From positions 1-64,000 of the IMG/VR virus record IMGVR_UViG_3300042923_001771: a stretch of DNA of 64,000 nucleotides. One strand, given 5' to 3'. The notes under the pieces are model-generated. The model saw only the letters and a list, made by a program, of their open reading frames with translations. It ran no database searches and had not been told where the DNA came from. Both the position numbers and the translations under genes were made by a program. Shown here piece after piece: positions 18,534 to 62,615 of the stretch. Position 1 is the stretch's first letter. Every line of letters begins with the position of its first letter. Source of the stretch: a virus (lineage: Duplodnaviria; Heunggongvirae; Uroviricota; Caudoviricetes).

Positions 18534-18554
18534 AATTTAATTGAGGTGGTTAAA

Positions 18555-33190: not shown

Positions 33191-33357
33191 GTAGATCCCT
33201 CCTTTACTTTCATTATAGTTAATTTACTAATAATTTTTATAAGCATCATTATTTTTGTCTGGAAAAATTTTTTTTAGTTCGGTATTAATAAATTCGATTG
33301 TTGTTTTATTTCTTTAATGAAAGGGGGAGATAATCCACACAGGAGGTGACGTGTCGT

Positions 33358-36459: not shown

Positions 36460-36553
36460 TTATACAGAAGACTATATAAGATGGAGTGTTAAAAGCACTC
36501 CATCTTTTAAATAAGATATCAAAAGACTACGAGATAAGGAAGGAACACAAACA

Positions 36554-37591
36554 ATGGATAAATTAAATGACCGTAAAATTTATGATATAAGTGCACCTAA
36601 TCGTTCTACAGGTATTATCAATGGAGAAAGTTCTAACGTATTGAATTGGGATGATTGTCGTTTTGACTGGGCGTACCCTCGATATAAAAAAATGTTAGGA
36701 AATTTCTGGACACCATTTGAAATAAACATGGCTACAGATGTAAAACAATATCTTCAATTAGAACCGCATGAAAAAGAAGCATTTAATAAAATTATTGGTT
36801 TGCTTGCGTTTTTAGATAGTATTCAAACAGATTATGCCTTTAAAGTTGCGAATTATCTTACAGATTCTAGTTTGAACGCAATCATGGTTACGTTAGCATT
36901 TCAAGAAGTTGTTCATAATCAATCTTATTCTTATGTCTTGTCATCTGTTGCTGATAAGAAAATTCAAGATGAGGTATTTGAATATTGGAAGCATGACCCA
37001 ATTTTACTTGAACGAAATGATTTTATTGCTAAAGCTTATGAAAAATTTACAGATGAACCAAATGTAGAGAATTTCTTGAAATCTATTGTTTTTGATATTA
37101 TTCTAGAAGGTTTGAACTTCTATTCTGGTTTTGCATTCTTCTATAATCTTGCTCGTAATCAAAAGATGGTTGCTACATCCACAATGATTAATTATATCAA
37201 TCGTGATGAGCAATTGCATGTTGATACATTTATTAAGATTTTCAGACAAATCTTAGTTGAGTATCCTGAATATGATACTCCAGAGATGGCAAGCTTCGTT
37301 ATTGATACATTTACAAAGGCAGCTGAGCTTGAAATCAAATGGGCTCATTATATTATCGGAAATAAGTTTGATGGAATTAACATTAAAGATCTTGAAGCTT
37401 ATGTTAAATTTATGGCTAATAACCGTGTTCATGCTATGGGATTTGAACGTCCTTTTGAAGGATTTAGAACTAATCCAATGCGTTGGATTAAGGCTTATGA
37501 AGACGTAGATCTTGGAAAAACTGACTTTTTTGAACAGAAATCCCGTCAGTACACTAAAGTTAGTATAGATAATGGATTTGATGATTTGTAA
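36554..37591 (+). CDS. nrdB: ribonucleotide reductase class I small (beta) subunit
   Basis: Di-iron ligand motifs EVVH, EGLNFYSGFAFFY, RDEQLH. Confidence 0.85.
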   Translation: MDKLNDRKIYDISAPNRSTGIINGESSNVLNWDDCRFDWAYPRYKKMLGNFWTPFEINMATDVKQYLQLEPHEKEAFNKIIGLLAFLDSIQTDYAFKVANYLTDSSLNAIMVTLAFQEVVHNQSYSYVLSSVADKKIQDEVFEYWKHDPILLERNDFIAKAYEKFTDEPNVENFLKSIVFDIILEGLNFYSGFAFFYNLARNQKMVATSTMINYINRDEQLHVDTFIKIFRQILVEYPEYDTPEMASFVIDTFTKAAELEIKWAHYIIGNKFDGINIKDLEAYVKFMANNRVHAMGFERPFEGFRTNPMRWIKAYEDVDLGKTDFFEQKSRQYTKVSIDNGFDDL

Positions 37592-37933: not shown

Positions 37934-38440
37934 ATGATTAAAGCATTCAAAGCAGATTTAACGCAAGTACCCGATGTAGATTACATTCTCAACGCTGCTA
38001 ATGGTGTAGGCCCGATGGGGAGTGGAATTGCAGGAGCTATTCGCAGAGCGGGTGGAACCGAAATTCAAGAACAAGCTACCATTATGTGTTCCAAGCACGA
38101 TTATCAACCAGGAGATATTTACGTAACATCCGCTGGTAGATTATCATATAGAAAGATAATTCATCTTGTAACAATGAAATATCCAGGTGGGGTAACATCT
38201 TATGAAATTGTTGAAAAGTGTCTTAGAAATTTAGTTATGTATTGTAGAGCAGCATCAATCAAGAAAATCGCTTTACCGGCTCTTGGTACTGGCGTAGGAA
38301 AATTAGATCTTCAAAAGGTAGCTCAATTATTTGTTGAAATTTTAGGACCCGCTCAAGATATAGAATTTTTGGTAGTAGATATTGACCCCGTTTTCATTTA
38401 TCATGTCAATCATCAAATTGATACAGAGGTTAAACAATAA
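37934..38440 (+). CDS. macro-domain protein (ADP-ribose / ADP-ribose-1-prime-prime-phosphate processing)
   Basis: LNAANGVGPMGSGIAGAI and the following G-rich loop are typical of macro domains. Confidence 0.7.
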   Translation: MIKAFKADLTQVPDVDYILNAANGVGPMGSGIAGAIRRAGGTEIQEQATIMCSKHDYQPGDIYVTSAGRLSYRKIIHLVTMKYPGGVTSYEIVEKCLRNLVMYCRAASIKKIALPALGTGVGKLDLQKVAQLFVEILGPAQDIEFLVVDIDPVFIYHVNHQIDTEVKQ

Positions 38441-47744: not shown

Positions 47745-48872
47745 ATGTTGAAAATTGGTTTTTTGACAATTGGTGAGGGTGGTTCTAATATTGGTGAATA
47801 TGCTGCTGGAAAAGGTTGTCCGGTCATAGCTGTAAACAGTGCAAAAATTGATCTTGGAAAACTAAAAGCAGTACCAAAAGATAGTAGAATTCACCTTGCT
47901 GGTTGGGAAGGTGCTGGTAGAAACAGAGACGTTGGTAAGGAGGCAATGATTGCTCATGCAGAAACAATCAGTGAAAAGGCAAGAGTTAAACATGACGAAT
48001 GTGACATTGTTTTTGTCGTTGGTTCTACAGGCGGTGGAACTGGTAGTGGCGCTCTTCCTGTAGGAGTAGAGATACTTTCTGACTTTAAGAAACATGTTGG
48101 AGCAATAACAATTCTACCAGCATTGAGAGAGAGTCCAAAAGCTCATATGAATTCTTTGGAATGTTTTTCAGAAATGAGCCAATTTGAAGATTTGGGTGGA
48201 GTATTTACTATTGACAATGAAAAAGCAGAAGAGATTTTTAAAGGCCAAGACAGAACTTCAATTTATGAATTGTCAAATCAACAAATAATTGACAATCTAG
48301 TTGAAGTAAGTGCTCTCACTGGACAATCATCATATGTATCCAATTTTGATAAGAATGATTTATTAGAGGTACTAAGCGATAGAGGCTGTACCGTTATCAG
48401 TAAAATTATAGTTCCTATTGACAAACTGAAAAATTCATTAGATATAGTAAATGCAATTAGAGATTCTTGGAAACAAGTGTGTTCGCCAGATATTGCATAT
48501 GGCCAAATTGTTAAAGCGGTTGTTCTTGGCAAAATACCAAAAGAAATGACTTCTATTATTGACGTTAAAAAGGTTTTTGAAGAAACTGGGATGCCATACG
48601 ACATCATTGAAGCTTATTATCCAAATACTGACCACCAAAATCATTGCATTTTTTATACGATTTTGTCTGGTTTGGCTTTCCCAGTAGAACGTCTTAACCA
48701 AATTGAAATCAATGTTCAAAAAATCGAACAAGATTTAATGGACAGAATGGAGTCTTCTAGGAACCAAACATTTAAAACTAGTAATTGGAACTCTAAATTC
48801 AAAAGTAATTTAGGCAAGGAAAAAGAAAGAACAACTTTGTCATTAGCTGAAAAGCTTGCCAAATACAAATAA
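47745..48872 (+). CDS. tubulin/FtsZ-superfamily GTPase (TubZ/PhuZ-like)
   Basis: T1 loop IGEGGSNIG and the tubulin signature VVGSTGGGTGSG (T4). Divergent elsewhere. Confidence 0.7.
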   Translation: MLKIGFLTIGEGGSNIGEYAAGKGCPVIAVNSAKIDLGKLKAVPKDSRIHLAGWEGAGRNRDVGKEAMIAHAETISEKARVKHDECDIVFVVGSTGGGTGSGALPVGVEILSDFKKHVGAITILPALRESPKAHMNSLECFSEMSQFEDLGGVFTIDNEKAEEIFKGQDRTSIYELSNQQIIDNLVEVSALTGQSSYVSNFDKNDLLEVLSDRGCTVISKIIVPIDKLKNSLDIVNAIRDSWKQVCSPDIAYGQIVKAVVLGKIPKEMTSIIDVKKVFEETGMPYDIIEAYYPNTDHQNHCIFYTILSGLAFPVERLNQIEINVQKIEQDLMDRMESSRNQTFKTSNWNSKFKSNLGKEKERTTLSLAEKLAKYK

Positions 48873-49761: not shown

Positions 49762-50175
49762 ATGTTGGATGAAGTACAAGAATATCTTGATGCGCTCTAT
49801 ATTATGAGATCGCTAACTGGCGATCATCTTGAAAAATATAAATTTATACGCAAAGTAGATAGAGTTGATTTTTCTAGTTTGACAGCTTGCTATGCAGATC
49901 ATACTACAAAAAAATTTACAATGAAATGGATTCCCATTATTTCAATAATTATTGAACCAGATTTTACAATTTCATTTACTGGTAAATTTAATAAATGGGA
50001 CGGACCATTTGAGAAAAATTTAAATCTATATGCAAATAAGCATAAAGGATATAAATCAATAAATCCGGTGCCTCAATCAAGAAAGACGCAATTTTTATTT
50101 AATTTCTCAGACATAGAATCATTTAAAAAATTCTTTGAAATGTATTATTGGAGGGAATATGCTAGTAAACGATGA
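49762..50175 (+). CDS. hypothetical protein
   Basis: 137 aa ORF. Confidence 0.5.
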   Translation: MLDEVQEYLDALYIMRSLTGDHLEKYKFIRKVDRVDFSSLTACYADHTTKKFTMKWIPIISIIIEPDFTISFTGKFNKWDGPFEKNLNLYANKHKGYKSINPVPQSRKTQFLFNFSDIESFKKFFEMYYWREYASKR

Positions 50176-50770
50176 AACTTTTAGTAAATATGAAGTGCTA
50201 AATATTTATTTATACGGTTCAAAGGTCTATGGTTGCAATCCTAATGGAGACGATGACTATATTGTAGTTGTTAAGGGAAAAGATATAAATGAACAATTTG
50301 TTAGCGATGAATATGATGCTACATTTTATAGTGAAGATGTATTTCAACATATGATAGATGAGCATGACATTTCAGTGTTGGAATGTTTGTTTCTTCCAGA
50401 AGACAAGATTATAAAGGAAGATAAAAAATTCAAATTCGAGTTAAATCTTAATAAACTAAGAATAAATGTTTCAGCTAAAACTTCTAATAGTTTTGTAAAA
50501 TGTAAAAAGAAATTAGCTATTGGTAATGAACGTGAAGCATACATTGGAAAAAAGAGTTTGTTTCATTCACTAAGAATGCCAATGTTTGGAATACAAATTG
50601 CAAAGTATGGTAAGATTGTTGATTATAGTGAAGCTAATGAATTTTGGAATATTATAATTCAAAATGAAATTAATGATTGGACTTTTTACAAAAAAACATT
50701 TCAGCCAATTTCAAATATGATAATGACCGAATTTAGAAAATTAGCACCACTAGAAGAACCTTCAGAGTAA
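50159..50770 (+). CDS. minimal Pol-beta-superfamily nucleotidyltransferase
   Basis: LYGSKVYG..GDDDYIVVV (GS ... DxD) NTase core. ATG after ggaggg, so the real start is internal to the track ORF. Confidence 0.55.
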   Translation: MLVNDETFSKYEVLNIYLYGSKVYGCNPNGDDDYIVVVKGKDINEQFVSDEYDATFYSEDVFQHMIDEHDISVLECLFLPEDKIIKEDKKFKFELNLNKLRINVSAKTSNSFVKCKKKLAIGNEREAYIGKKSLFHSLRMPMFGIQIAKYGKIVDYSEANEFWNIIIQNEINDWTFYKKTFQPISNMIMTEFRKLAPLEEPSE

Positions 50771-50783: not shown

Positions 50784-50834
50784 TGTAAAAAACATCATAA
50801 ACTCATTAAACACTATTTAAAATCAATCCTGCTT

Positions 50835-50879
50835 CTTTATATAATAATCAAATAACAAAAGAAAACCCAGGAGGAATTA
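50835..50879 (+). promoter_or_regulatory. TATATAATAAT-class promoter/5-prime UTR module
   Basis: cTTTATATAATAATcAAATAAcAAAaGAAaACccAGGAGGAATTA, nearly identical to the module at 58137. Confidence 0.4.
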
Positions 50880-50885
50880 AAAAAA

Positions 50886-51434
50886 ATGAAAAAAGTTGTA
50901 ATTGGATGTGTGGCAGTTTTTGTAGCTTTCATTCTTATTACTTGTATTGCTGCAGGTACTATTTTAAGTTCCCGGAACACAGCTGTTACTTTAGAAAATA
51001 AAGTAAAAGCACAATACGCTTCAAATCAAGCTTCTTATGATGGAATGTGGAAAACTTTTGTCGAAATGACACAGGTTACTGATTTACAAGCTAAGCAAAT
51101 GAAAGAAGTTTACACGGGATTAATTAGCGGACGTTATCAAGATCCAAATTTGCTTTTTAAAATGGTAAAAGAAGACAACCCAAAACTCGATACAACAGTT
51201 TATACAAAAATTCAACAAGCGATTGAAGCAGGTCGAAAAGGATTTACTAATGACCAAAAGAAAGTACTTGACATAGTGAGAGAATACAATACGTATATTC
51301 AACATCACTTCATTATGGCAGCAATTACAGGTCGTACTCAACTTGATGAAAACAAATATATTACAACATCTGATCGCACCAAAGATGCATTCAATAGTGG
51401 TAAAGATGGAGCAGTTAATTTAAACGGCAAATAA
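50886..51434 (+). CDS. LemA family protein
   Basis: N-terminal TM then a LemA-like soluble domain, about 180 aa. Confidence 0.65.
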   Translation: MKKVVIGCVAVFVAFILITCIAAGTILSSRNTAVTLENKVKAQYASNQASYDGMWKTFVEMTQVTDLQAKQMKEVYTGLISGRYQDPNLLFKMVKEDNPKLDTTVYTKIQQAIEAGRKGFTNDQKKVLDIVREYNTYIQHHFIMAAITGRTQLDENKYITTSDRTKDAFNSGKDGAVNLNGK

Positions 51435-51450
51435 AAGGAGAAGATGATAG

Positions 51451-52587
51451 ATGTATTGGGTACCAGTAATTATAGTTGGTTTAATACTTCTAGTCATTGA
51501 ACTTGTATGGACTCGGAATTTCTTGCGAGTCCTCATTATTACCCTTGTGTCAACTCTTCTCATGGGTATTATTGTAGGGATTGACTACACCTCTCAAACC
51601 GCAGATACTGAAATTTGGTCTGGTAAAGTTGCAAGTTGGGAACACAAGGAAGAATGGGATGAATGGCATCCACCAAAAACAACTTGTACTACCAGTACAG
51701 ACAGTAACGGTAATTCGAGGCAAAGTTGTAAAACAGAACCGGGATATACTGAACATCATTATGCACAAAATCACATTTATACAACAGATGATGGTTGGAT
51801 TAATGTAGATAAGTCGCCTGATGGTAAGAAATTTGATGATAGTTGGCCAAATGATGATAAAATATTGAAACAATATTGGCCTGAAGGAACACCAACAGCT
51901 TCAACCCACTCTTATATAAACAAAGTACAAGCATCTTATTCTATTTATCGTCATAAAGAAATTGATTTGAATAAGTTTGAAAACTTACCTGATTATCCTA
52001 AAAAAGTAACAAATTACGTTAATGTTGATAGGATCGTTGGTGAAGTTCCGAATAAAGATAAAGCTTTAGTTGAACTCGCAAAATGGAATACAGAACTTAA
52101 CAAAAGTGTATCTGACCCAGAAAAGCCAGGCAAAACCAAATCTTGGAAACAAGTTAACATTATTTTTGTTAACCTTGGCATAAACAAACCTCAAGAAACA
52201 GGATTTGCCTTGCAGGATAAGTGGGAAGGCGGAAACAAAAATGATTTTGTTATAGCTTTTAGCACTGATGAAGAAGGTAATGTTAATTGGTCATATCCAT
52301 TCTCTTGGTCAGAAGCAGAACTTCTAAAGATTCAAGTACGAGATTACATGAATAGTCTTAAAAAGATTGATGATTTTGTGCCAGTTGTAAGTAATGTTTC
52401 TGAAATGTTAGCGAAAGATTTTGTAAGAAAACAATTTAAAGACTTTAACTATCTTCAAATTGAAGTAAGCACAGTTGGTTACGTATGCATTTTCATAGCT
52501 AGTTTTATTGCTTTAGCTTTAGGTGTTTTTCTCACAGTGATTCAACATAAAAATAATCAATCTCGTCAAAGTCGTAGACGTAGATAA
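51451..52587 (+). CDS. membrane protein (2 N-terminal TM, 1 C-terminal TM, Arg-rich tail)
   Basis: Hydropathy pattern read from the translation; follows LemA in the same operon. Confidence 0.6.
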   Translation: MYWVPVIIVGLILLVIELVWTRNFLRVLIITLVSTLLMGIIVGIDYTSQTADTEIWSGKVASWEHKEEWDEWHPPKTTCTTSTDSNGNSRQSCKTEPGYTEHHYAQNHIYTTDDGWINVDKSPDGKKFDDSWPNDDKILKQYWPEGTPTASTHSYINKVQASYSIYRHKEIDLNKFENLPDYPKKVTNYVNVDRIVGEVPNKDKALVELAKWNTELNKSVSDPEKPGKTKSWKQVNIIFVNLGINKPQETGFALQDKWEGGNKNDFVIAFSTDEEGNVNWSYPFSWSEAELLKIQVRDYMNSLKKIDDFVPVVSNVSEMLAKDFVRKQFKDFNYLQIEVSTVGYVCIFIASFIALALGVFLTVIQHKNNQSRQSRRRR

Positions 52588-52605
52588 TGGGAGGATAAAT
52601 TAATT

Positions 52606-53241
52606 ATGTCAAAATTTGATAAAGCTTATGAAGCAGTAGAGGATGCAATGGGAAATGCTGGGTTTGATTTCTCTTATAGAGTAGATGGTGATGAAGAGGA
52701 TGGTCAAATTTGTGTATTTGTAGATTCTCATGAAATTCCTGATGACACTGGTTATTATATGCGTGAAATCGCAAGTGTACTTGAAGGTGTAGATGGTATT
52801 TCTGTTGTTGATATGGAAGCTCACGAGACGGTTGTTGTTACTGCTAAAGTTGATAGCTTTAATGAAGATGATATTGAACTTGAAATTAGTAAAGAAGTCC
52901 CTCAAGAACTTAGACCGTCTGATGTATATGAGTTAGTCGTTAGAGTTATGCATGGCGATGCAGACCATTTCGATAATCTAACTTTTATTGCAGAAACACA
53001 ATCTGAAGTAAAACAATATATTAATTTATTTGATAATATGCTTAATGAATACCCTAATGGTCGTGGTGGTGGAGATAATTACTATCATATTGAAGGGTTT
53101 GATAAATTGCTTGAAAGCGACTGGCCTTGGGATGTCACAGATGAAGATTCGCAAGCTGGAATTAAAAGCTACAAAGTCTATTACTATGATGAAGATAGCA
53201 AGAAATTTGAAGTAAAAATTAAAAGAAAGCGGGCGAACTAA
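52606..53241 (+). CDS. HGDADH/GRGGGD-motif protein, paralog A (two-domain)
   Basis: C-terminal half VMHGDADHFDNLTF..YPNGRGGGDNYYHIEGF..DWPWDVT is paralogous to the next gene. Confidence 0.6.
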   Translation: MSKFDKAYEAVEDAMGNAGFDFSYRVDGDEEDGQICVFVDSHEIPDDTGYYMREIASVLEGVDGISVVDMEAHETVVVTAKVDSFNEDDIELEISKEVPQELRPSDVYELVVRVMHGDADHFDNLTFIAETQSEVKQYINLFDNMLNEYPNGRGGGDNYYHIEGFDKLLESDWPWDVTDEDSQAGIKSYKVYYYDEDSKKFEVKIKRKRAN

Positions 53242-53243
53242 TC

Positions 53244-53621
53244 ATGGCAACTATCCTTAAGATTGGCAAAGTCATTCCAACTGAACAAATCAAAAATGTA
53301 TATGAGATTAAGGTTAACATAATGCATGGCGATGCTGATCATTATGAAGATCTTACATTTCATCTTGAAACTGAAGATGAAGTAAATCAATATATTGATT
53401 TACTAGACAGGATGGAAGCGGAATACCCTCACGGCCGAGGCGGTGGAGATGATTATGATCATCTTGATGGCTTTAATGAATTGCTTGGTGACGATTGGCC
53501 CGGTGATGTAACGAGTGATAGTATGTATCAAGCAAGTATGGACGGATATGTAGTTACTTATTATGATGAAAACGGTGTAGAGTATGAAGTGGAAGTTCAA
53601 TATAGTGAAGGAGATAAATAA
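53244..53621 (+). CDS. HGDADH/GRGGGD-motif protein, paralog B
   Basis: IMHGDADHYEDLTF..YPHGRGGGDDYDHLDGF..DWPGDVT. Confidence 0.6.
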   Translation: MATILKIGKVIPTEQIKNVYEIKVNIMHGDADHYEDLTFHLETEDEVNQYIDLLDRMEAEYPHGRGGGDDYDHLDGFNELLGDDWPGDVTSDSMYQASMDGYVVTYYDENGVEYEVEVQYSEGDK

Positions 53622-53622
53622 A

Positions 53623-53895
53623 ATGAATAAAAAAATCATTGTACTTATTATTCTTGCCAATCTCGCTATTGGTGCTCTTGTTGGTTGTAATTCTGTTGCT
53701 AAAAAAATGGGTGGAACAATAAATGTAGATTTACCAAAAGGACAAAAATTGGTAAATGTAACTTGGAAAGATGCTAATTTGTGGTATCTTACAAAACAAA
53801 TGAAAGACGGAGATATTGCTGAAACTTATGAGTTTAAAGAAGATAGTAATTTCGGTATCGTTGAAGGCAAAGTTATCTTCAAAGAGAGTAAGTAA
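53623..53895 (+). CDS. putative lipoprotein
   Basis: Signal peptide with lipobox ALVGC-N; RBS gaaggaga. Confidence 0.55.
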   Translation: MNKKIIVLIILANLAIGALVGCNSVAKKMGGTINVDLPKGQKLVNVTWKDANLWYLTKQMKDGDIAETYEFKEDSNFGIVEGKVIFKESK

Positions 53896-53899
53896 AGAT

Positions 53900-54097
53900 A
53901 TGACTGATAAAAAAGATAAAGAACCAAAAGTTTTTGTTCTTAAACGAACGGAAGAAAATGAAGAATGGTGGAGAGAGATGGACAATTGGCTCCATCCTCA
54001 AGACCCTGAAAGAATAGCGGAAGTTAAGAGACGTTTTGAAGAATCCAGAGAGCGTTTCAGAAAGCTTAAGGAGATTGAAAATGAGAAAAAAGAGTAA
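53900..54097 (+). CDS. hypothetical charged protein
   Basis: Internal ATG chosen to avoid overlapping the previous gene; weak RBS. Confidence 0.4.
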   Translation: MTDKKDKEPKVFVLKRTEENEEWWREMDNWLHPQDPERIAEVKRRFEESRERFRKLKEIENEKKE

Positions 54098-54188
54098 ACA
54101 ACTCGAAATGAAATTCAACATCTTCAAGAAGCGAAAGAATTATTAATGATTACGTGAAGTTCGACGATAGCGAATAGGAGGAATTAAA

Positions 54189-54980
54189 GTGTCAGTTAAA
54201 AAATATGATGAGTTGTCGCAGCGGATGAAAAGTTACGAGTTTGCAAGCAAACAACAACTTACCCCAAGGATGCCGGTTATCATTCGTATTGATGGTTGTC
54301 ACTTCCACACTTACACTAAGGGATTTGATAAACCTTTTGATGAAACTCTAATTCGAGTTTTCTGGGAAACTTGTAAATACCTTGCAGCTAATGTTATGGG
54401 TTGTAAGTTGGTTTACCACCAGTCCGATGAGATTTCTCTTTTGCTTACTAACTACGATAAACTAACTACTCAAAGTTGGTTTGATAATGGTCTTCAAAAA
54501 ATGGCATCCGTTTCTGCATCATTAGCAACTGCTAAGTTTAATGATGAAATGAAAAAGATCTATCCAGACATGACAAAACTTGCAACATTTGATAGCCGTG
54601 TTTTCTTGCTCCCGCACAATGAAGTAGCAAACTATTTTATCTGGCGACAGCAAGATGCTTCTAAAAACAGCGTATCCATGCTTGCTCAAAGTTTGTTCCC
54701 TCACAAGGAATTGCAAGGAGTAAACACAAAACAAATGCAGGATAAGATGTTTACAGAAAAAGAAGTAAATTGGAATGACTTGCCAACATGGCAAAAAAGA
54801 GGGGCTTGCATTGTCAAAGAACAATTTGACTTAAACGGTGCGCAGAGAAATCGCTGGGTTGTTGATGAAGAAACTCCTATCTTTACTCAAGATAGAAGTT
54901 ATATTGAACAATTCGTATACCAACAAAAAGAAGAAGAGAAGCAGGGTGTTAATCTCGCTTCTACATTAGGAGGAATATAA
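54189..54980 (+). CDS. Thg1-like protein (tRNA-His guanylyltransferase family, 3-prime-5-prime nucleotidyltransferase)
   Basis: PRMPVIIRIDGCHFHTYTKGFDKPFDE..YHQSDEISLLLT matches the Thg1/TLP N-terminal catalytic core. Confidence 0.65.
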   Translation: MSVKKYDELSQRMKSYEFASKQQLTPRMPVIIRIDGCHFHTYTKGFDKPFDETLIRVFWETCKYLAANVMGCKLVYHQSDEISLLLTNYDKLTTQSWFDNGLQKMASVSASLATAKFNDEMKKIYPDMTKLATFDSRVFLLPHNEVANYFIWRQQDASKNSVSMLAQSLFPHKELQGVNTKQMQDKMFTEKEVNWNDLPTWQKRGACIVKEQFDLNGAQRNRWVVDEETPIFTQDRSYIEQFVYQQKEEEKQGVNLASTLGGI

Positions 54981-54984
54981 ATCC

Positions 54985-55245
54985 ATGGATAGAAAAATAG
55001 TATTAGAGGCAGTTTATAGTTATGTCAATGAGTTTGCTAATATCGATTACGATGGCTTTGAAACTGTTGGAGAAAAAGCAGAAAAGAAAGTTATATTTAA
55101 TGATGTCGAAGACCTTGTTGAGTTTTGTATTAAAAATAAACTCGAGCTATCTGTACTACCTAATGGTACAATGGTTGTAGTTACTGACCCAGAAAACCCT
55201 GAGGATGCATCTATTTTAGGTCCCGTTGCAGCGCAGATCAATTAA
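54985..55245 (+). CDS. hypothetical protein
   Basis: 86 aa ORF. Confidence 0.5.
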   Translation: MDRKIVLEAVYSYVNEFANIDYDGFETVGEKAEKKVIFNDVEDLVEFCIKNKLELSVLPNGTMVVVTDPENPEDASILGPVAAQIN

Positions 55246-55335
55246 AAAAATAGTTTACAGAAACTGTTTAAACTCATTTAAGGTTTAAATATAATATTTA
55301 AGTAACAAAATAAAAATTGAGGAAGTGACCCAACA

Positions 55336-57573
55336 GTGTCCAAATTCTACAAAAACCTAATCAAACTTGGTAACAAAACAAAAACTCTAGTTACAGTCAA
55401 TTATGAACAATCTCAAAAAACAGAATCCACTACAGTTGATTCTATTCATCACATTCATATTCTTGATAGAAGTGGATCAATGAGCAGCGAAATTGCAAAA
55501 CTTATTGAAAACGTTAAACAAACAATTACAGAAATGTCTCCAAACGATAAAGTTACAATCATTTGGTTTTCCGGTGCAAGTCAATGTAAGGTTCTAGTTA
55601 AAAATGCTTCTAAAGATGAAACTGAATTATTTGTATTGCTTGATTCTATCAAATCTACAGTTGGCGCAACTTGCTTCTCAACCCCAATGCAAGAAGCAAA
55701 TGAAGTTATCAACGATTTGCAAGCTCTTAATCATAACTTTTCAGTTACAGTATTTACTGATGGTGAACCAGTTGTTCCTTGGTCTATCGCTGAAGAAGAA
55801 AACAAAATTTTTGTTGAATTGGCAAAAATGAAAGATAAAATTTTGGCTCTAAATACAATTGGTTATGGTTATTACTACAACCAAGATTTGCTTCGTCGCA
55901 TGGCAGCTGAATCAATGTTTGGTACCGCAATTCACTCCAGTCAAATTAGTGAATATGTAAGTATCTTCCATCATAACTATGAAAAGGTAAGCGAACTCAT
56001 TTTTGATTCTGCAGAAGTTAAAGCTCCAGTTGGAACTGAGATTCTCTATCTCAACAGTTACTCTACGAAACTCGTTCGTAATGATGGACATATGAAGATG
56101 AATCGTTTGGAAAAACGTAAAAATCAATTCTTCATTGTTGCTGATAATGATTTCACATTTGAATTTAATGGCGAAGTTATTGATTCTGCAACTCTTACAA
56201 GCGAAGTAGCAGAAAGCACGTTGACAAACTTCTATTATGCTTTTGCATACGAGCTTCACTACGGTGGATATCGCCAAGAAGCACTTGATGTATTGGCAAA
56301 TAACATTTGCGATAAATACTTCATTGACACCCAACTCAATGCATTTACTTACAGCGAAGTTGGTAACTTCCGCAAGGAACTTAAGAAAGCAGTTATCAAA
56401 CCTAAATATCGTTTCAAAACTGGTGAAGCTCCAGCCAATTATGTTCCTCGTGAAGATGCACTTTGTGTTATGGATGTACTGGGAATTCTTTCTGAAGGAA
56501 CTAACTACTACGTTCCAAGTAAGAATTATCAACGTATTGGAGCTGAAGTAGTAGATAATCAAAATCTTTTCAAAGCAAACAAAGAAGAAATTCGTTCACT
56601 CTTCAAAGATTTTACTTTCAACAAGAAACACATGAATGTTTCCATTATGTTCACTGTGAAAGGAACGGTTACCATCAATGCCAAGCTTGCAAAAGCTCAT
56701 AACCTTCCTAAAGAAGTTGATAGCCACATTTTCCGTACGCATACTATCATTAAAGATGGCAACTTGAATATGCAAATCATTGAAGCTGTTCTTGATCAAA
56801 AAACATACGATAAATTTGTAGCTCTTGAAACAGATAATGGAATCAACTTCTTAACTTCTAAAGGACAAGAAGAAAAAGGCCAACGCGTTGAAATTGATCT
56901 TGCTCAATTCCCAACAGTTAACCGTACTTACGTTAACGATAGTGGAAGCATTGATAACATTGTTGATACAGTAGAAAATACTACAAACCTTGAAATCAAG
57001 CAAAAAGCATTGAACTACTACATCAAAGAAATTAAATCTCAAAATGTTGATTCTACTCTTGCGGGTAACTTTGCTGGTTTGAATGAAGACCAAATGGAAG
57101 TATTGAAAGCTCATGGTCTGGATAAAAACTTTACTTATGGCGGAGTAGATAATGGAAAACAAGAGCCAGTTGATTTCTACGAATCTCGAGTACTTGAGTT
57201 CTATCTTAAAGGTTTTTCTTCTATCCCTTCTGTTTCAGATGTGCAAAAGAAGTTTGCTGATGGTAAAAAACTTACTGGTCCGAGTCAAGTAATGAATGAT
57301 TATCTGATTGACCTTGCTCAACGCATGACGGCCGCTGGACTTAATCTTGGAGATACTACTCTTGAGGCAAAAGCTTTCCTCGAAAGCGAATTTGAAAGTG
57401 TTAAGTCAACACTCTTTAAAGAAAGAGTAAAAATGAATTCCATGAAGATTGCTAAGGTATTGACTGGTGACTGGTTTACTGGTCTTGAAGTTGATGATAA
57501 AGGTAATCAAACTTATACCAAGAATGGTAAAACATTGATAGTTAAAGCAGACCGGGTTAAAATCGGAATTTAG
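55336..57573 (+). CDS. von Willebrand factor A (vWA) domain protein
   Basis: MIDAS DRSGSMS near the N-terminus; 745 aa; GTG start. Confidence 0.65.
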   Translation: MSKFYKNLIKLGNKTKTLVTVNYEQSQKTESTTVDSIHHIHILDRSGSMSSEIAKLIENVKQTITEMSPNDKVTIIWFSGASQCKVLVKNASKDETELFVLLDSIKSTVGATCFSTPMQEANEVINDLQALNHNFSVTVFTDGEPVVPWSIAEEENKIFVELAKMKDKILALNTIGYGYYYNQDLLRRMAAESMFGTAIHSSQISEYVSIFHHNYEKVSELIFDSAEVKAPVGTEILYLNSYSTKLVRNDGHMKMNRLEKRKNQFFIVADNDFTFEFNGEVIDSATLTSEVAESTLTNFYYAFAYELHYGGYRQEALDVLANNICDKYFIDTQLNAFTYSEVGNFRKELKKAVIKPKYRFKTGEAPANYVPREDALCVMDVLGILSEGTNYYVPSKNYQRIGAEVVDNQNLFKANKEEIRSLFKDFTFNKKHMNVSIMFTVKGTVTINAKLAKAHNLPKEVDSHIFRTHTIIKDGNLNMQIIEAVLDQKTYDKFVALETDNGINFLTSKGQEEKGQRVEIDLAQFPTVNRTYVNDSGSIDNIVDTVENTTNLEIKQKALNYYIKEIKSQNVDSTLAGNFAGLNEDQMEVLKAHGLDKNFTYGGVDNGKQEPVDFYESRVLEFYLKGFSSIPSVSDVQKKFADGKKLTGPSQVMNDYLIDLAQRMTAAGLNLGDTTLEAKAFLESEFESVKSTLFKERVKMNSMKIAKVLTGDWFTGLEVDDKGNQTYTKNGKTLIVKADRVKIGI

Positions 57574-57581
57574 TACAATTA

Positions 57582-57617
57582 AAATCACCTGGAATTTTCT
57601 TTCCAGGTGATTTTTCT
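57582..57617 (+). terminator. rho-independent terminator
   Basis: aatcacctggaa-ttttcttt-ccaggtgatt followed by a T-run. Confidence 0.7.
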
Positions 57618-57639
57618 TTACGAAAGGAGTTCATAAATA

Positions 57640-58056
57640 ATGAATTTAATTAGTAATATTAAGATTCTTTTTTTAAGATTCAAAAATAAAAAAAATTTAA
57701 ATAAAGAAGAAGTAGAAAAAATAGAAGAAGAAGCAAATGTGCACTTAGAACCAGAATGTGAATTTATTTCTAGATACATTAAAGGAAATGGATTTCATAT
57801 GGATTTATTTTTTAACAAGAAAATACATCATATGTATATAGATGAAGATCAAAATGTAAAATTTGTTTTTGTAGATAATACTAAATTTTCTTTTAGAGGT
57901 CAAATTGAAAAAAACATACAAGAAGCTCGTCCTGGTTCTATATGGATTGAAGGAGAAAATTTTTGTTATATTGATAGTAAAAAGAACAAAAGAACAATCA
58001 ATGCAATAAGTGTTAACATAATGTACAATTTTGGTATAGATGCTTCTTATGCCTAA
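57640..58056 (+). CDS. hypothetical protein
   Basis: RBS aaaggag. Confidence 0.5.
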   Translation: MNLISNIKILFLRFKNKKNLNKEEVEKIEEEANVHLEPECEFISRYIKGNGFHMDLFFNKKIHHMYIDEDQNVKFVFVDNTKFSFRGQIEKNIQEARPGSIWIEGENFCYIDSKKNKRTINAISVNIMYNFGIDASYA

Positions 58057-58070
58057 AGGAGGATTAATTA

Positions 58071-58096
58071 ATGGGACCTTAGGGTCTCATTTTTAT
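58071..58096 (+). terminator. rho-independent terminator (modest stem)
   Basis: gggacc-ttag-ggtctc followed by tttttatt. Confidence 0.45.
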
Positions 58097-59619: not shown

Positions 59620-59883
59620 ATGGAAAACAAGCCGAGCAACGAAACAAAGAAGAATTATCTTTCAAAGATTAAACGTTTTTACTTTCTACGCAATGAAGAT
59701 GAAAGCGGAGTAAGTGGAACGGGTATTGTAGCTACCGGAGTAGAATTTCCTTCCGGTCAAGTTACAATTGAATGGTCAGCATCCCCTGTAAAATCAATCA
59801 CCTTCTATCCTAACGTTGAGGCTGCAATTTCCATACATAGTCATGGCGGTAAAACAGTTCTTAAGTGGATTGACCAAGATTAA
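59620..59883 (+). CDS. hypothetical protein
   Basis: 87 aa ORF. Confidence 0.5.
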   Translation: MENKPSNETKKNYLSKIKRFYFLRNEDESGVSGTGIVATGVEFPSGQVTIEWSASPVKSITFYPNVEAAISIHSHGGKTVLKWIDQD

Positions 59884-59944: not shown

Positions 59945-61054
59945 ATGAAAATTGTAAAGACGGGTAGTATGTCAAGGATTTTTTCTGATGATTTACAAAC
60001 CTTTGATAAGATACCTGTAGGTAACTATAAAGTTTGTTTTGGACCATTTACTGGATTCTATCTAGAAGATGCTGATTCCTTTAAGTTAGATGAAAAGCCA
60101 TATGGCAAACATCCTCTTAAGATTGCTAAAGCAATTAAGTTATATGAAAATATTGAGCGCGGTGCAGGCATCATCTTGAGCGGTAAAAAGGGTATGGGTA
60201 AGTCCATGTTTGCTCGCCTTCTTTCAGTAACTTTTGCTGATACTCGTGAAATGCCGACAATCATTATCACAGAAGCATATCCTGGCATCGTTGACTTCAT
60301 TGAATCGATCAAACAAGAATGTGTTGTCCTGTTTGATGAGTTCGAAAAGGTGTTCGATAACAGTGAGAAGAAAGAATCACAGGACAAACTACTTAGTCTC
60401 TTTGATGGTATCTCTCAAACAAAGCGTTTGTACGTGGTAACGGTTAATGAACTCAGACGGGTTAACCAATACATGATCAACCGTCCTGGTCGTTTCCATT
60501 ATCATTTACAATTTAATTATCCTTCAGTTGAGGAAATTGAGTTGTATTTGAAGGACAAACTCAAACCCGAGTATCAGCATCAAATTGCTCTTGTTCAAAG
60601 GTTCTCGAACCGTTTTGATTTGAACTACGATTCACTTAGAGCTATTGCTTTTGAGTTGAATTTCGGCTACGGTTTCCTAGAGACGATGGAAGATTTGAAC
60701 ATCTCATCTACCGAAAATGAGTCCACTAGATATAATGTTGCCATCCATCATAGCAATGGACTTACTGTGCAGACAGACGCAAACATTAATCTGATGAGTT
60801 CCTATGCTTCGTTTAGTTATAGTACTCCTACAGGAGAATACGTTTCTATCAATTTCTCTCCACTTGAAATTGAAATTAAGGAAAAGGAATCCTTTACAGT
60901 AACGTCGGAAGACGCATCACTTAAAGTGCAGTACGATAGCGACAATGAGACCTTAACTGAGGAAAGCGGAATTACTGTTGATAAGATCGTACTTATAAAA
61001 CGAGAACTTGGTAGAACTCAGTTTGGTAAAGAGCTTGATATGTTGTTAGTTTAA
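59945..61054 (+). CDS. AAA-type ATPase
   Basis: Walker A GKKGMGKS and Walker B VVLFDEFEK. Confidence 0.65.
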   Translation: MKIVKTGSMSRIFSDDLQTFDKIPVGNYKVCFGPFTGFYLEDADSFKLDEKPYGKHPLKIAKAIKLYENIERGAGIILSGKKGMGKSMFARLLSVTFADTREMPTIIITEAYPGIVDFIESIKQECVVLFDEFEKVFDNSEKKESQDKLLSLFDGISQTKRLYVVTVNELRRVNQYMINRPGRFHYHLQFNYPSVEEIELYLKDKLKPEYQHQIALVQRFSNRFDLNYDSLRAIAFELNFGYGFLETMEDLNISSTENESTRYNVAIHHSNGLTVQTDANINLMSSYASFSYSTPTGEYVSINFSPLEIEIKEKESFTVTSEDASLKVQYDSDNETLTEESGITVDKIVLIKRELGRTQFGKELDMLLV

Positions 61055-61805: not shown

Positions 61806-62615
61806 TTACAGTATTAAATTATTAAAATCAAAAGAATAAAAACTTATATTTGTTTCAAATTGTGTTAGATATTTATCTAAAGTATTAGCTCGTTCTTCAT
61901 CGTCAAATACAAATATCACTTTTGGTATTATTGCTACATCCTCATATGGTTGCCATTTATCTGTCTTAAATGTATTTGTATTGAAATACTCATGATAGTC
62001 TTTTATTTTTTTGTATAAAACATTCATATGTTCTGTACCCATATCAATCTCAAACATAGCAAAATTTTCTTTTTCTCCATTATTCCAACCAATAAATGCA
62101 TCTGGTCTAAGCGTTTTATCTGTACCATTATGCATCCATTCCAATAAAATCTCCGGTTTCCATCCAATCATTTTATACTTTTCATAAATATCTGCAAATA
62201 TGTTGTTTCTATAAACTGTGTGTCTCCAATTTTGAGTAAGTACAAGAACTTTTCTATAACCTTTTACATCAATTAATCTTGCGCCAATAGGAGCCAAAAC
62301 AACATGTGATTGAGAACTTCCGCCATTAGCCATTGGGTAGAATCTATCAATACAACCAAGTTCAAATAGTTTCTTTAGGCTATTATTTGCAAATTTAAAT
62401 GGATGTGACCTACCTCTGTGGATAATTTTTGCTACTTGACTTGATGTAACGATTCGTAGTTGATGTATTAGTTTAAGCGTTTTTAAGTCTATGTCATTGA
62501 TTTTAGCTTTAGCAAACATAATTTTCTCATTGTTAATTTTCTTAACGTATTCCTCGTATTTTTCTCTGTCCTCTCTAAAACGTTCTACTAATATCCAGTT
62601 CTGACATTTGATCAC
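61806..62615 (-). CDS. replication-relaxation family-like protein (putative)
   Basis: N-terminal wHTH-like LRIVTSSQVAKII and a conserved LRPDAFIGW segment, as in plasmid replication-relaxation proteins. Tentative. Confidence 0.4.
   Translation of the reverse strand: MIKCQNWILVERFREDREKYEEYVKKINNEKIMFAKAKINDIDLKTLKLIHQLRIVTSSQVAKIIHRGRSHPFKFANNSLKKLFELGCIDRFYPMANGGSSQSHVVLAPIGARLIDVKGYRKVLVLTQNWRHTVYRNNIFADIYEKYKMIGWKPEILLEWMHNGTDKTLRPDAFIGWNNGEKENFAMFEIDMGTEHMNVLYKKIKDYHEYFNTNTFKTDKWQPYEDVAIIPKVIFVFDDEERANTLDKYLTQFETNISFYSFDFNNLIL

What the first reader, a model, noticed from the sequence alone, without database searches (positions are those of the whole stretch)
54189..54980. Phage-encoded Thg1-like 3-prime-5-prime nucleotidyltransferase: candidate tRNA 5-prime-end repair or anti-defence function
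The N-terminal core (PRMPVIIRIDGCHFHTYTKGFDKPFDE ... YHQSDEISLL) matches the Thg1/TLP palm-domain signature. Bacterial and archaeal TLPs repair truncated tRNA 5-prime ends by template-dependent 3-prime-5-prime addition. A phage copy is a plausible countermeasure to host tRNA-targeting nucleases (anticodon or acceptor-stem cleaving defence or toxin systems). Alternatively it could mature phage-encoded tRNAs elsewhere in the genome.
Basis: partly seen in the sequence, partly recalled or inferred. Interest (0 to 1): 0.65.

Follow-up and report, generated by a model that had tools for sequence, protein, structure and literature searches.

The report
Phage Thg1-like tRNA 5'-end repair enzyme
This gene in a large Bacillales phage encodes an intact Thg1-like "reverse" (3'-to-5') RNA polymerase that probably rebuilds damaged tRNA 5' ends, but this enzyme family is already annotated in more than 160 phage genomes and the same role has already been proposed, so it is an ordinary new member.

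Summary
ORF 54189..54980 (+) has a GTG start with an AGGAGG ribosome-binding site and encodes 263 aa. It is a bona fide Thg1-like protein (TLP):
- Pfam Thg1 E=2.9e-33.
- PHROG 4717 E=3e-110.
- 69% identical to the crystallised Bacillus thuringiensis TLP (PDB 4KGK/4KGM, E=2.6e-116).
- Every experimentally defined catalytic and nucleotide-binding residue is conserved.
- The AlphaFold model superposes on 4KGM (TM 0.9).

The element is a phage: nucleotide-metabolism genes, virion PHROGs, and a terminase just outside the window. NCBI labels the 191.6 kb contig "Bacillales bacterium" and the gene "hypothetical".

The idea is not new. tblastn finds homologues in 164 phage records, mostly annotated tRNA-His guanylyltransferase. 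tRNA 5'-end restoration was already proposed for jumbo phages in 2021. BtTLP itself sits on the jumbo prophage pBtic235.

Support for a repair role is indirect. 28 of 80 viral TLP loci carry RNA-repair genes (RlaP, RNA ligase, kinase-HD, CCA-adding-like enzyme) within 10 kb. This window has a short RlaP-like nucleotidyltransferase 3.4 kb upstream. No tRNA gene, ligase or kinase-phosphatase occurs in the 73.5 kb I could read, and no 5'-truncating defence nuclease is known.

Verdict: new member of a known kind, low interest.

The parts
54189..54980 (+). Thg1-like protein (TLP) gene, 263 aa, GTG start. Palm/catalytic domain is residues ~11-142, Thg1 C-terminal region ~145-229 including a beta-hairpin at 206-226, and a disordered lineage-specific tail at 247-263.
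   Evidence: ORF. Pfam Thg1 E=2.9e-33 and Thg1C E=1.5e-4. PHROG 4717 E=3.1e-110. PDB 4kgk E=2.6e-116. AF2 and Foldseek.
54176..54181 (+). Shine-Dalgarno sequence AGGAGG, 7 nt upstream of the GTG start.
   Evidence: Read directly from the sequence.
54291..54293 (+). Codon for D35, the metal-binding carboxylate equivalent to BtTLP D30 and hTHG1 D29.
   Evidence: Alignment of 199 TLPs: D in 197/199. Residue roles from PMC3701042.
54426..54431 (+). Codons for D80 and E81, equivalent to BtTLP D75/E76 and hTHG1 D76/E77. S79 lies immediately before them.
   Evidence: Invariant in 199/199 sequences. The D75A mutation inactivates BtTLP (PMC3701042).
54985..55245 (+). 86-aa ORF starting 4 nt after the TLP stop. 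Probably co-transcribed or translationally coupled. Function unknown, and there is no evidence it belongs functionally.
   Evidence: ORF. Called as a gene in NCBI/Logan records. No Pfam or PHROG hit. No homologue near other TLPs.
50159..50770 (+). Short (203 aa from the ATG) RlaP-like Pol-beta-superfamily nucleotidyltransferase, a candidate RNA-repair partner 3.4 kb upstream on the same strand. Motif YGS...DDD is intact.
   Evidence: Custom RlaP HMM E=3.1e-6. Pfam RlaP E=0.003, 17.7 bits, below the 23-bit cutoff. PHROG 388 nucleotidyltransferase E=1e-10. hhalign against the RlaP family from TLP loci gives probability 96.5%, E=9.4e-10. Homologues lie near TLPs in L014, L032 and L079.
50816..58091 (+). 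Possible transcription unit containing the TLP, from a promoter-like site at 50816-50845 to a terminator-like hairpin at 58070-58091. A second promoter-like site lies at 55267-55295. These are weak consensus matches only.
   Evidence: Promoter-like sites are not enriched over shuffles (53 found, 43 expected). Terminator-like sites: 8 found, 3.5 expected.

Best explanation
The ORF encodes a catalytically intact bacterial-type Thg1-like protein carried by a large (at least 191 kb) phage of a Bacillales host. By homology to BtTLP it should activate the 5'-monophosphate end of an RNA with ATP or GTP. It should then add nucleotides in the 3'-to-5' direction, each chosen by Watson-Crick pairing with the opposite 3' strand. 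This rebuilds tRNA acceptor stems that have lost 5' nucleotides, whatever the tRNA species. In the phage it most likely serves as an accessory RNA-repair gene that keeps the tRNA pool usable during infection, against host or competitor nucleases that nibble tRNA ends. It possibly works with the RlaP-like nucleotidyltransferase encoded 3.4 kb upstream. Shown here: gene, fold, catalytic residues, TLP subtype, phage context, and the association of viral TLPs with RNA-repair genes. Inferred: the enzyme activity (from a 69% identical characterised homologue), the in vivo substrate, and the counter-defence role. The confidence of 0.55 is for the whole statement. Taken separately: that it is a TLP, about 0.98; that it has templated 3'-5' addition activity, about 0.85; that its role is tRNA 5'-end repair or counter-defence in infection, about 0.45.
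For: Identity: Pfam Thg1 at 115 bits, PHROG 4717 E=3e-110, and 69% identity to BtTLP 4KGK. The AF2 model matches 4KGM at TM 0.9. All residues defined experimentally in BtTLP are conserved here and nearly invariant in 199 homologues (PMC3701042): E12 -> E17, R28 -> R33, D30 -> D35, T38 -> T43, K43 -> K48, L49 -> L54, S74 -> S79, D75 -> D80, E76 -> E81, R131 -> R137, M158 -> M164. TLP subtype: the eukaryotic HINNLYN segment is replaced by ASKNSVS, as in BtTLP (ASKNSIS). Activity: BtTLP preferentially repairs 5'-truncated tRNAs in a templated way that is not specific to tRNA species (PMC3061083 abstract; PMC6471195). A strong ribosome-binding site indicates expression. Phage context. Guilt by association: among 80 IMG/VR TLP loci, neighbours within 10 kb include RlaP (17 loci, immediately downstream in 5), a CCA-adding-like enzyme (9), RNA ligase (8), Metallophos (8) and a PNK-like kinase-HD protein (7). 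In all, 28/80 loci, or 22/60 TLP clusters at 80% identity, have at least one. An RlaP-like gene is present in this window. The gene is retained in a related phage at 81% identity with the same local gene order. The hypothesis agrees with published comparative genomics (PMC7824862).
Against: No RNA ligase, polynucleotide kinase/phosphatase or CCA-adding enzyme was detectable in the window plus 9.5 kb of flank. No tRNA gene or Rfam RNA was found there either. The immediate neighbours of this TLP are not conserved with other TLP loci, and 52 of 80 viral loci show no repair neighbour. I had no random-locus control for the neighbourhood enrichment. No defence or toxin nuclease that leaves 5'-truncated tRNAs is documented in what I could read. 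No phage TLP has been tested genetically. About 118 kb of the contig could not be inspected.
Confidence: 0.55

Rival explanations
1. It does what its database name says. It adds G-1 to tRNA-His, for example to a phage-encoded tRNA-His whose precursor is cut by RNase P at +1 or whose gene lacks an encoded G-1, by templated addition opposite C73.
For: Homologues in phages are annotated tRNA-His guanylyltransferase. TLPs can add G-1 opposite C73, and BtTLP can rescue a yeast thg1 deletion by adding U-1 opposite A73 (PMC6471195). One distant viral locus (L080) has a tRNA-His gene 560 bp upstream of its TLP with T rather than G at -1.
Against: [quoted passage not shown] The HINNLYN segment typical of true Thg1 is absent. 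Most bacteria encode G-1 genomically (PMC3061083 abstract). No tRNA gene of any kind lies in the 73.5 kb readable here. Only 1 of 50 tRNAs near viral TLPs is tRNA-His.
Confidence: 0.12
2. It matures phage-encoded tRNAs by 5'-editing, replacing mismatched 5' nucleotides of acceptor stems as DdiTLP3 does in Dictyostelium mitochondria.
For: TLP-bearing phages usually carry tRNA arrays: Bc431v3 has 20 and pBtic235 has 17, lying 13.5 kb from BtTLP. In a few viral loci tRNAs abut the TLP, for example L016 at 31 nt and L051 at 144 nt. TLPs perform this role in protist mitochondria.
Against: Only 13/80 viral TLP loci have any tRNA within 10 kb. 46 of 50 of those tRNAs have fully paired base pairs 1-3. 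The four exceptions include an initiator-type C1 mismatch and suppressor or odd tRNAs. So there is no encoded-mismatch signature. No tRNAs occur in the readable part of this phage.
Confidence: 0.08
3. It acts on a non-tRNA substrate. It might extend, or cap by adenylylation or guanylylation, the 5' ends of phage or host RNAs with recessed 5' ends. It might instead make a nucleotide signal, as related palm-domain enzymes (GGDEF, Cas10, mCpol) do.
For: BtTLP accepts an external oligonucleotide template and accumulates App- and Gpp-RNA intermediates. Thg1 shares its palm fold with cyclases (PMC2904730; weak Foldseek hits to GGDEF and Cas10). An Acb5-like anti-CBASS gene and Macro, HD and SLOG genes show that the phage invests in nucleotide-signal conflicts.
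Against: Every residue tied to tRNA-type 3'-5' addition is conserved, and the tRNA-binding beta-hairpin is predicted. No evidence exists for any non-tRNA substrate in vivo for bacterial TLPs. The neighbours in other phages are tRNA/RNA end-healing enzymes.
Confidence: 0.07
4. It is a passenger gene picked up from a Bacillales host or plasmid and has no selected function in the phage.
For: Close homologues are common in Paenibacillus and Bacillus chromosomes and plasmids. The neighbourhood is variable.
Against: Catalytic residues are intact and there is a strong ribosome-binding site. The gene is retained with the same synteny in a relative at 81% identity. The family recurs in 164 phage records across many host phyla.
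Confidence: 0.04

Closest known systems
BtTLP, Bacillus thuringiensis Thg1-like protein (PDB 4KGK/4KGM; Hyde et al. 2013, PMC3701042; Rao et al. 2011, PMC3061083)
   Same: 69% identical over 240 residues. All catalytic, activation and nucleotidyl-transfer residues are the same, as are the predicted fold and the TLP-type replacement of HINNLYN. It is also carried by a very large phage-type element: BtTLP is 100% identical to a gene of pBTHD789-2 = pBtic235, an inducible 235 kb jumbo prophage-plasmid.
   Different: The query has an 18-residue disordered C-terminal tail and an N-terminus 5 residues longer. Its gene neighbourhood differs: BtTLP sits after SLOG and GIY-YIG genes and 13.5 kb from a 17-tRNA array, while the query sits between virion-like genes and a vWA gene with no tRNAs in view. 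The query has not been tested biochemically.
PHROG 4717, phage 'tRNA-His guanylyltransferase' (e.g. Bacillus phages Hobo gp168, Bcp1, Bc431v3 gp143, phage G gp378; Pseudomonas phage 201phi2-1)
   Same: Full-length match at E=3e-110, with 61-66% identity to the Bacillus phage proteins. These are also large phages, and the published guess for them is the same: tRNA modification or repair.
   Different: There is no DNA-level similarity to any INPHARED phage. This phage lineage's conserved neighbour genes point to AR9/PBS1-like jumbo phages rather than Herelleviridae.
Archaeal TLP (Methanosarcina acetivorans MaTLP, PDB 5AXK-5AXN, solved with tRNA)
   Same: Same family and fold (E=1.5e-14; TM 0.76-0.82). 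The carboxylates align. It repairs 5'-truncated tRNAs and recognises the T arm through a beta-hairpin.
   Different: Only about 25% identity. It is a cellular (archaeal) gene.
Eukaryotic Thg1 (human 3OTB, Candida 3WBZ, yeast 5XOX)
   Same: Palm fold, two-metal carboxylates, and the three-step chemistry of activation, transfer and pyrophosphate removal.
   Different: About 20-25% identity. The query lacks HINNLYN and the N161 equivalent. Thg1 adds one non-templated G-1 to tRNA-His selected by its GUG anticodon, whereas TLPs are templated and independent of the anticodon.
Phage T4 Pnkp + Rnl1 tRNA repair, and RlaP-containing RNA-repair systems (functional analogues)
   Same: A phage-encoded answer to tRNA damage. 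In other viral contigs, TLPs lie beside RNA ligase, kinase-HD and RlaP genes.
   Different: The chemistry differs: end-healing and sealing of anticodon-loop breaks versus templated 5' extension of the acceptor stem. No ligase or Pnkp was found in the readable part of this phage.

Membership tests
Thg1/TLP superfamily (Pfam PF04446) | Thg1 catalytic-domain profile match above the curated threshold | tested here: met
   115 bits against the 29.2-bit gathering score, covering profile positions 2-130 of 130.
Thg1/TLP superfamily (Pfam PF04446) | Three conserved carboxylates (hTHG1 D29/D76/E77 = BtTLP D30/D75/E76) | tested here: met
   D35, D80 and E81 are present, and the columns are 197/199, 199/199 and 199/199 conserved. 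They also align to the RADG/SDE and RVDG/SDE motifs of 5axk and 3wbz.
Thg1/TLP superfamily (Pfam PF04446) | Activation-step and nucleotidyl-transfer residues (BtTLP K43, S74; R28, R131; E12) | tested here: met
   K48, S79, R33, R137 and E17 are all present. Their roles are from PMC3701042.
Thg1/TLP superfamily (Pfam PF04446) | Polymerase-like palm fold | tested here: met
   AF2 model with pLDDT 84.1 and pTM 0.83. Foldseek against PDB: 4kgm E=3e-32, TM(target) 0.89-0.90, and hits 1-32 are all Thg1/TLP.
Thg1/TLP superfamily (Pfam PF04446) | 3'-5' nucleotidyl transfer activity | not testable with these tools
   Needs an enzyme assay. Inferred from 69% identity to BtTLP.
TLP subgroup (bacterial/archaeal-type, as opposed to bona fide Thg1) | Lacks the Thg1-specific HINNLYN segment and the N161 equivalent | tested here: met
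   Query WRQQDASKNSVSM aligns to Candida Thg1 WRQVDCHINNLYN and equals BtTLP WRQQDASKNSISM. Absence of N161 in TLPs is stated in PMC6471195. That HINNLYN marks true Thg1 is from my own knowledge of the family.
TLP subgroup (bacterial/archaeal-type, as opposed to bona fide Thg1) | Closer to characterised TLPs than to Thg1 | tested here: met
   E=2.6e-116 to BtTLP, against 1e-10 to 1e-12 for the eukaryotic Thg1 proteins.
TLP subgroup (bacterial/archaeal-type, as opposed to bona fide Thg1) | Template-dependent repair of 5'-truncated tRNAs, independent of the anticodon | not testable with these tools
   Shown for BtTLP and MaTLP but not for this protein.
Phage RNA-repair module (RlaP / RNA ligase / kinase-phosphatase / CCA-adding enzyme, as in Iyer et al. 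2021) | A repair nucleotidyltransferase (RlaP) encoded nearby | tested here: inconclusive
   ORF 50159..50770. Pfam RlaP scores 17.7 bits, below the 23-bit cutoff. PHROG 388 gives E=1e-10 and hhalign to RlaP neighbours of other TLPs gives 96.5%. The ORF is shorter than typical RlaP proteins and lies 3.4 kb away, probably in a separate transcription unit.
Phage RNA-repair module (RlaP / RNA ligase / kinase-phosphatase / CCA-adding enzyme, as in Iyer et al. 2021) | RNA ligase and end-healing kinase/phosphatase present | tested here: not met
   Profiles built from the ligase, kinase-HD, CCA-HD and Metallophos neighbours of other TLPs found nothing significant in the six-frame translation of the window plus L003. 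The best hit, E=0.0014, was to a CoaE-type kinase. Contig positions 1-118,118 could not be examined.
Phage genome (versus plasmid or chromosome) | Virion and packaging genes plus phage replication and nucleotide-metabolism genes | tested here: met
   PHROG virion structural protein and tail-spike-like genes, clamp loader, helicase and RNR. ThyA, DHFR, TK and CTP synthase. PHROG 2666 large terminase at E=1e-166, 6 kb beyond the window. The vWA gene is 43% identical to those of AR9/PBS1. No capsid or portal gene was seen in the readable part.

The most novel reading that the evidence does not exclude
The TLP and the RlaP-like nucleotidyltransferase together form a ligase-independent, two-enzyme acceptor-end healing system. 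The TLP rebuilds the 5' strand on the 3' template and the RlaP-like enzyme rebuilds the 3' strand or CCA. The system would counter a still undiscovered class of Bacillales defence or toxin nucleases that trim tRNA acceptor ends. BtTLP itself sits on a jumbo prophage, and viral TLPs cluster with RNA-repair genes. On this reading, the long-unknown physiological role of 'bacterial' TLPs would be in phage-host conflict rather than housekeeping.
Probability: 0.12. Interest if true: 0.6.

Novelty: new member of a known kind. Interest (0 to 1): 0.2.

Why it matters
For genome annotation, a gene deposited as "hypothetical protein" on a contig labelled "Bacillales bacterium" can be named with confidence, and the contig can be recognised as a large phage.

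Biologically it adds little. Phage Thg1-like genes have been noted since 2010, are routinely annotated, and were already placed among phage RNA-repair counter-measures in 2021.

The useful residue concerns the physiological role of bacterial-type TLPs, which is still an open question.
- The model enzyme BtTLP is encoded by the inducible jumbo prophage pBtic235.
- About a third of viral TLP loci carry RlaP, RNA ligase, kinase-HD or CCA-adding-like genes nearby.
- Phage tRNAs near TLPs show no encoded acceptor-stem mismatches.

They also suggest tractable systems for a knockout test: pBtic235, or Bacillus phages such as Bcp1 or Hobo.

Tried and rejected
- Megablast of 52000-58000 against INPHARED phages found no match, so there is no close sequenced relative.
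- tRNA linkage: ARAGORN found no tRNA in the window or in L003, and Rfam gathering-threshold scans found nothing. Only 13/80 viral TLP loci have tRNAs within 10 kb. I rejected linkage as a general rule.
- 5'-editing of phage tRNAs: only 4/50 tRNAs have a mismatch in acceptor pairs 1-3. Rejected.
- Search for RNA ligase, PNK-like kinase-HD, CCA-adding-like enzyme, Metallophos, NAD ligase and NAMPT in the window plus L003, using HMMs built from TLP neighbours: only the RlaP-like hit was credible.
- Conjugative plasmid instead of phage. Precomputed Pfam hits to TrbL_4, DUF87/TraG and Replic_Relax lie downstream. The DUF87 protein matches a PHROG large terminase at E=1e-166 and Replic_Relax matches a phage replication-initiation PHROG. 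I rejected a purely plasmid reading, but a phage-plasmid lifestyle stays open.
- Literature search for a defence that truncates tRNA 5' ends. Retron Eco7/Ec78 PtuAB depletes tRNA-Tyr, but the papers I read define no cleavage site and could not reproduce cleavage in vitro. That gave no support.
- PDB sequence search for the RlaP-like ORF found nothing meaningful.
- A look-up of the 735-aa ORF at 18546 was not on record, because the called start differs.
- The Acb5 hit on 59620-59883 from precomputed Pfam could not be reproduced with the local Pfam copy.
- I could not read contig positions 1-118,118.
- I first estimated the identity to BtTLP at about 75% by eye. The computed value is 69%.
Full report
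**1. The observation**

An ORF lies at exactly 54189..54980 on the + strand, 263 aa with a GTG start. AGGAGG at 54176-54181 sits 7 nt upstream of the GTG, a textbook Gram-positive ribosome-binding site. The alignment to the crystallised homologue begins at residue 7, so the GTG start is credible.

The match to the Thg1 family is far beyond chance:
- Pfam PF04446: 115 bits against a 29.2-bit cutoff, E=2.9e-33, covering the whole profile. There is also a sub-threshold Thg1C match over residues 145-229.
- PHROG 4717 'tRNA-His guanylyltransferase': E=3.1e-110, full length.
- PDB 4kgk/4kgm (B. thuringiensis TLP): E=2.6e-116. Archaeal MaTLP and eukaryotic Thg1 structures score 1e-10 to 1e-14.

**2. 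Enzyme anatomy**

Identity to BtTLP is 166/240 = 69%. BtTLP numbering maps to the query with an offset of +5 (+6 after a one-residue insertion). Every residue with an experimentally assigned role (PMC3701042; PMC6471195) is conserved in the query:

| Role | BtTLP | Query |
|---|---|---|
| Metal carboxylates | D30, D75 | D35, D80 |
| Third carboxylate | E76 | E81 |
| Activation | K43, S74 | K48, S79 |
| Triphosphate contacts | R28, R131 | R33, R137 |
| Salt-bridge glutamate | E12 | E17 |
| Base-sandwiching residues | T38, L49, M158 | T43, L54, M164 |

These columns are invariant or nearly so in 199 homologues (one search lists the invariant columns in a 26-sequence subset).

The segment that reads HINNLYN in true Thg1 enzymes reads ASKNSVS here and ASKNSIS in BtTLP. 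This is therefore a TLP, not a tRNA-His-specific Thg1.

An AlphaFold2 model built from 26 sequences has pLDDT 84 and pTM 0.83. Only the C-terminal tail (247-263) is disordered, and the beta-hairpin at 206-226 is predicted. Foldseek places the model on 4KGM/4KGK (E about 1e-32, TM 0.89-0.90), and the next 24 hits are all Thg1/TLP structures.

**3. What the element is**

- The exact protein is deposited as 'MAG: hypothetical protein K0R18_164 [Bacillales bacterium]' on a 191,595 bp contig.
- The window is the reverse complement of the last 64 kb of JAQZBO010000001.1.
- Gene content is that of a large virulent-type phage: clamp loader/AAA, helicase, class I RNR, a virion structural protein and beta-helix tail-spike-like proteins. 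It also has ThyA, DHFR, TK, CTP synthase, ClpP, Macro and tubulin genes.
- The 745-aa vWA gene just downstream of the TLP is 43% identical to genes of the jumbo Bacillus phages AR9 and PBS1.
- Genes beyond the window first looked conjugative (TrbL_4, DUF87/TraG, Replic_Relax). Of these, DUF87/TraG resolves to a PHROG large terminase (E=1e-166) and Replic_Relax to a phage replication initiator; TrbL_4 has no PHROG match. A sigma factor is also present.
- There is no DNA-level match to any INPHARED phage.
- A metagenomic relative with an 81% identical TLP keeps the same order...-TLP-vWA-...-Replic_Relax.

'Phage-encoded' is therefore correct, and the gene is a stable part of this lineage.

**4. 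How new it is**

tblastn finds the protein in 164 phage records. Forty-six are Bacillus phages at 61-66% identity, and the rest infect Staphylococcus, Aeromonas, Vibrio, Mycobacterium, Caulobacter, Pseudomonas, Erwinia, Prevotella (Lak phages) and others. Nearly all have genomes above 85 kb, and most copies are already annotated tRNA-His guanylyltransferase.

Published notes on phage copies:
- Phage 201phi2-1's copy was noted in 2010 (PMC2904730).
- BM10's copy was noted in 2018 (PMC6292376).
- Iyer et al. 2021 list Thg1 among jumbo-phage RNA-repair enzymes restoring tRNA 5' ends, next to RlaP and CCA-adding enzymes (PMC7824862).

I found no experimental study of a phage TLP.

The model enzyme BtTLP is 100% identical to a gene on the 235,425 bp plasmid pBTHD789-2. 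That plasmid is pBtic235, an inducible jumbo prophage-plasmid (PMC6199540; PMC9700832), and it has a 17-tRNA array 13.5 kb downstream of the TLP. The enzyme that defines 'bacterial TLP' biochemistry is thus effectively a phage enzyme. That makes the present gene a close relative of something already solved and assayed.

**5. Evidence on function**

I fetched 80 IMG/VR contigs encoding relatives, with 10 kb flanks.

- *tRNA linkage.* Only 13/80 loci have a tRNA within 10 kb, although in a few the array abuts the TLP.
- *5'-editing.* 46 of 50 of those tRNAs have perfectly paired acceptor base pairs 1-3. There is no signature of encoded mismatches needing editing.
- *Neighbour families.* After the TLP itself, the commonest neighbour is an RlaP 'RNA repair pathway' Pol-beta nucleotidyltransferase (17 loci, immediately downstream in 5). 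Others are NAD ligase (13), a CCA-adding-like PolyA_pol_RNAbd+HD protein (9), YpsA-SLOG (9), ClpP (9), RNA ligase (8), Metallophos (8), NAMPT/PRPP synthetase (8) and an AAA_33/KTI12 kinase-HD protein (7).
- *Overall.* 28/80 loci, or 22/60 TLP clusters at 80% identity, have at least one RNA end-healing or sealing gene nearby. I had no random-window control, so this is suggestive rather than statistical.
- *This window.* Profiles of these families found one credible hit, the ORF at 50135/50159..50770 (E=3e-6). Pfam RlaP is sub-threshold for it (17.7 against 23 bits), PHROG 388 'nucleotidyltransferase' gives E=1e-10, and hhalign to the RlaP neighbours gives 96.5% probability with the YGS...DxD motif intact. 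Its homologues sit near TLPs in three other loci.
- *Missing partners.* No ligase, kinase-phosphatase or CCA enzyme and no tRNA or Rfam RNA is present in the 73.5 kb I could read. About 118 kb of the contig is unseen.

**6. Mechanism**

*Established for BtTLP*. The enzyme activates a 5'-monophosphate with ATP or GTP. The 3'-OH of an incoming NTP then attacks the activated end, with the NTP chosen by Watson-Crick pairing to the 3' strand of the acceptor stem. Pyrophosphate is then removed. The enzyme prefers 5'-truncated tRNAs of any species over full-length tRNA-His.

*Inferred for this protein.* The same chemistry, given 69% identity and identical active-site residues.

*Inferred for biology.* An accessory repair function that maintains tRNAs during infection, plausibly against nucleases that erode acceptor ends, and possibly together with the RlaP-like enzyme.

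*Limits.* A TLP cannot repair anticodon-loop cleavage, which is the best documented tRNA-directed defence. I found no documented nuclease that leaves 5'-truncated tRNAs. For retron Eco7 PtuAB the cleavage site is undefined and cleavage could not be reconstituted in vitro.

**7. Rivals**

[quoted passage not shown] One distant locus (L080) with an odd tRNA-His lacking an encoded G-1, 560 bp from its TLP, keeps it alive.
- *5'-editing of phage tRNAs.* Disfavoured by the acceptor-stem survey.
- *A non-tRNA substrate or signalling role.* Possible but unsupported.
- *A functionless passenger gene.* Unlikely given conservation and synteny.

**8. Verdict**

This is a new, previously unnamed member of a well-known phage gene family, so interest is low (0.2). 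The most novel reading still open is a TLP + RlaP acceptor-end healing pair against an unknown nuclease class, which would also explain the physiological role of bacterial-type TLPs. I put that at about 0.12.

Noticed in passing
L088 (NC_018509.1, pBTHD789-2 = pBtic235) 19998-20735; tRNA array at 34194-37217: The biochemically and structurally characterised 'bacterial' BtTLP (PDB 4KGK) is 100% identical to a gene on the 235 kb inducible jumbo prophage-plasmid pBtic235. It lies after SLOG and GIY-YIG genes and 13.5 kb upstream of a 17-tRNA array. In the papers I read, the TLP literature treats it as a bacterial gene.
   Followed up: yes
window 59620-59883 (+): This 87-aa ORF has a precomputed Pfam hit to PF26761 Acb5, a recently described phage anti-CBASS cGAMP nuclease family, and matches PHROG 7499 at E=1.8e-27. 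The local Pfam copy did not reproduce the hit. It is a candidate anti-defence gene 4.6 kb downstream of the TLP.
   Followed up: partly
whole window; NCBI JAQZBO010000001.1 (GCA_029238855.1): The contig is deposited as part of a 'Bacillales bacterium' MAG, but its readable 73.5 kb is phage. It is probably a mis-binned phage genome of at least 191 kb. Near-identical contigs occur in Logan run SRR35179801.
   Followed up: partly
window 47745-48872 (+), 61806-62615 (-); L003 18038-18811: A tubulin (TubZ/PhuZ-like) gene, a Replic_Relax-type replication initiator and a sigma-70 factor are present. Together with the similarity to the pBtic235 situation, they raise the possibility of a phage-plasmid lifestyle.
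   Followed up: no
L003 13317-14984 and 15414-17906 (about 3.3-7.9 kb beyond the window end): A DUF87/TraG-type P-loop ATPase matches PHROG 2666 'terminase large subunit' at E=1e-166. It is followed by an 831-aa DUF8128 protein (PHROG 5156), and a TrbL_4-like membrane protein lies upstream. An FtsK/HerA-type ATPase annotated as terminase is unusual for a tailed phage.
   Followed up: partly
window 55336-57573 (+) and 59945-61054 (+): A 745-aa vWA-domain protein (MIDAS motif DRSGSMS) is conserved in AR9/PBS1, Vi1-like and Rhizobium phages (503 phage records). An AAA/nSTAND3-like ATPase lies nearby. The TLP-vWA adjacency is retained in relative L089.
   Followed up: partly
window 52606-53241 (+) and 53244-53621 (+): Two adjacent ORFs are paralogues. 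Both match PHROG 8562 and share the motif MHGDADH...YPNGRGGGD. Their function is unknown.
   Followed up: no
window 37934-38440 (+), 31046-31723 (+), 33346-33840 (+), 21161-21679 (-): These ORFs carry Macro, HD_4 (RelA/SpoT-type hydrolase-like), HD and YpsA-SLOG domains respectively. Such genes are typical of nucleotide-signal or ADP-ribose conflicts, and SLOG genes also neighbour TLPs in 9 viral loci and in pBtic235.
   Followed up: no
L080 6750-6824: A phage tRNA-His(GTG) gene 560 bp upstream of that contig's TLP has T at -1 instead of G, an apparent U73 discriminator, and two internal acceptor-stem mismatches. It is a possible genuine TLP client or a pseudo-tRNA.
   Followed up: partly
proteins P0008, P0054, P0075: Some close TLP homologues (302-318 aa) carry a fused PF04255 (DUF433) domain, which the query lacks.
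   Followed up: no
L051 9784, L058 11886, L069 17143: ARAGORN calls CUA-anticodon (amber suppressor, labelled tRNA-Pyl) tRNAs within 0.2-6.5 kb of the TLP in three viral contigs. This hints at stop-codon recoding in those phages.
   Followed up: no
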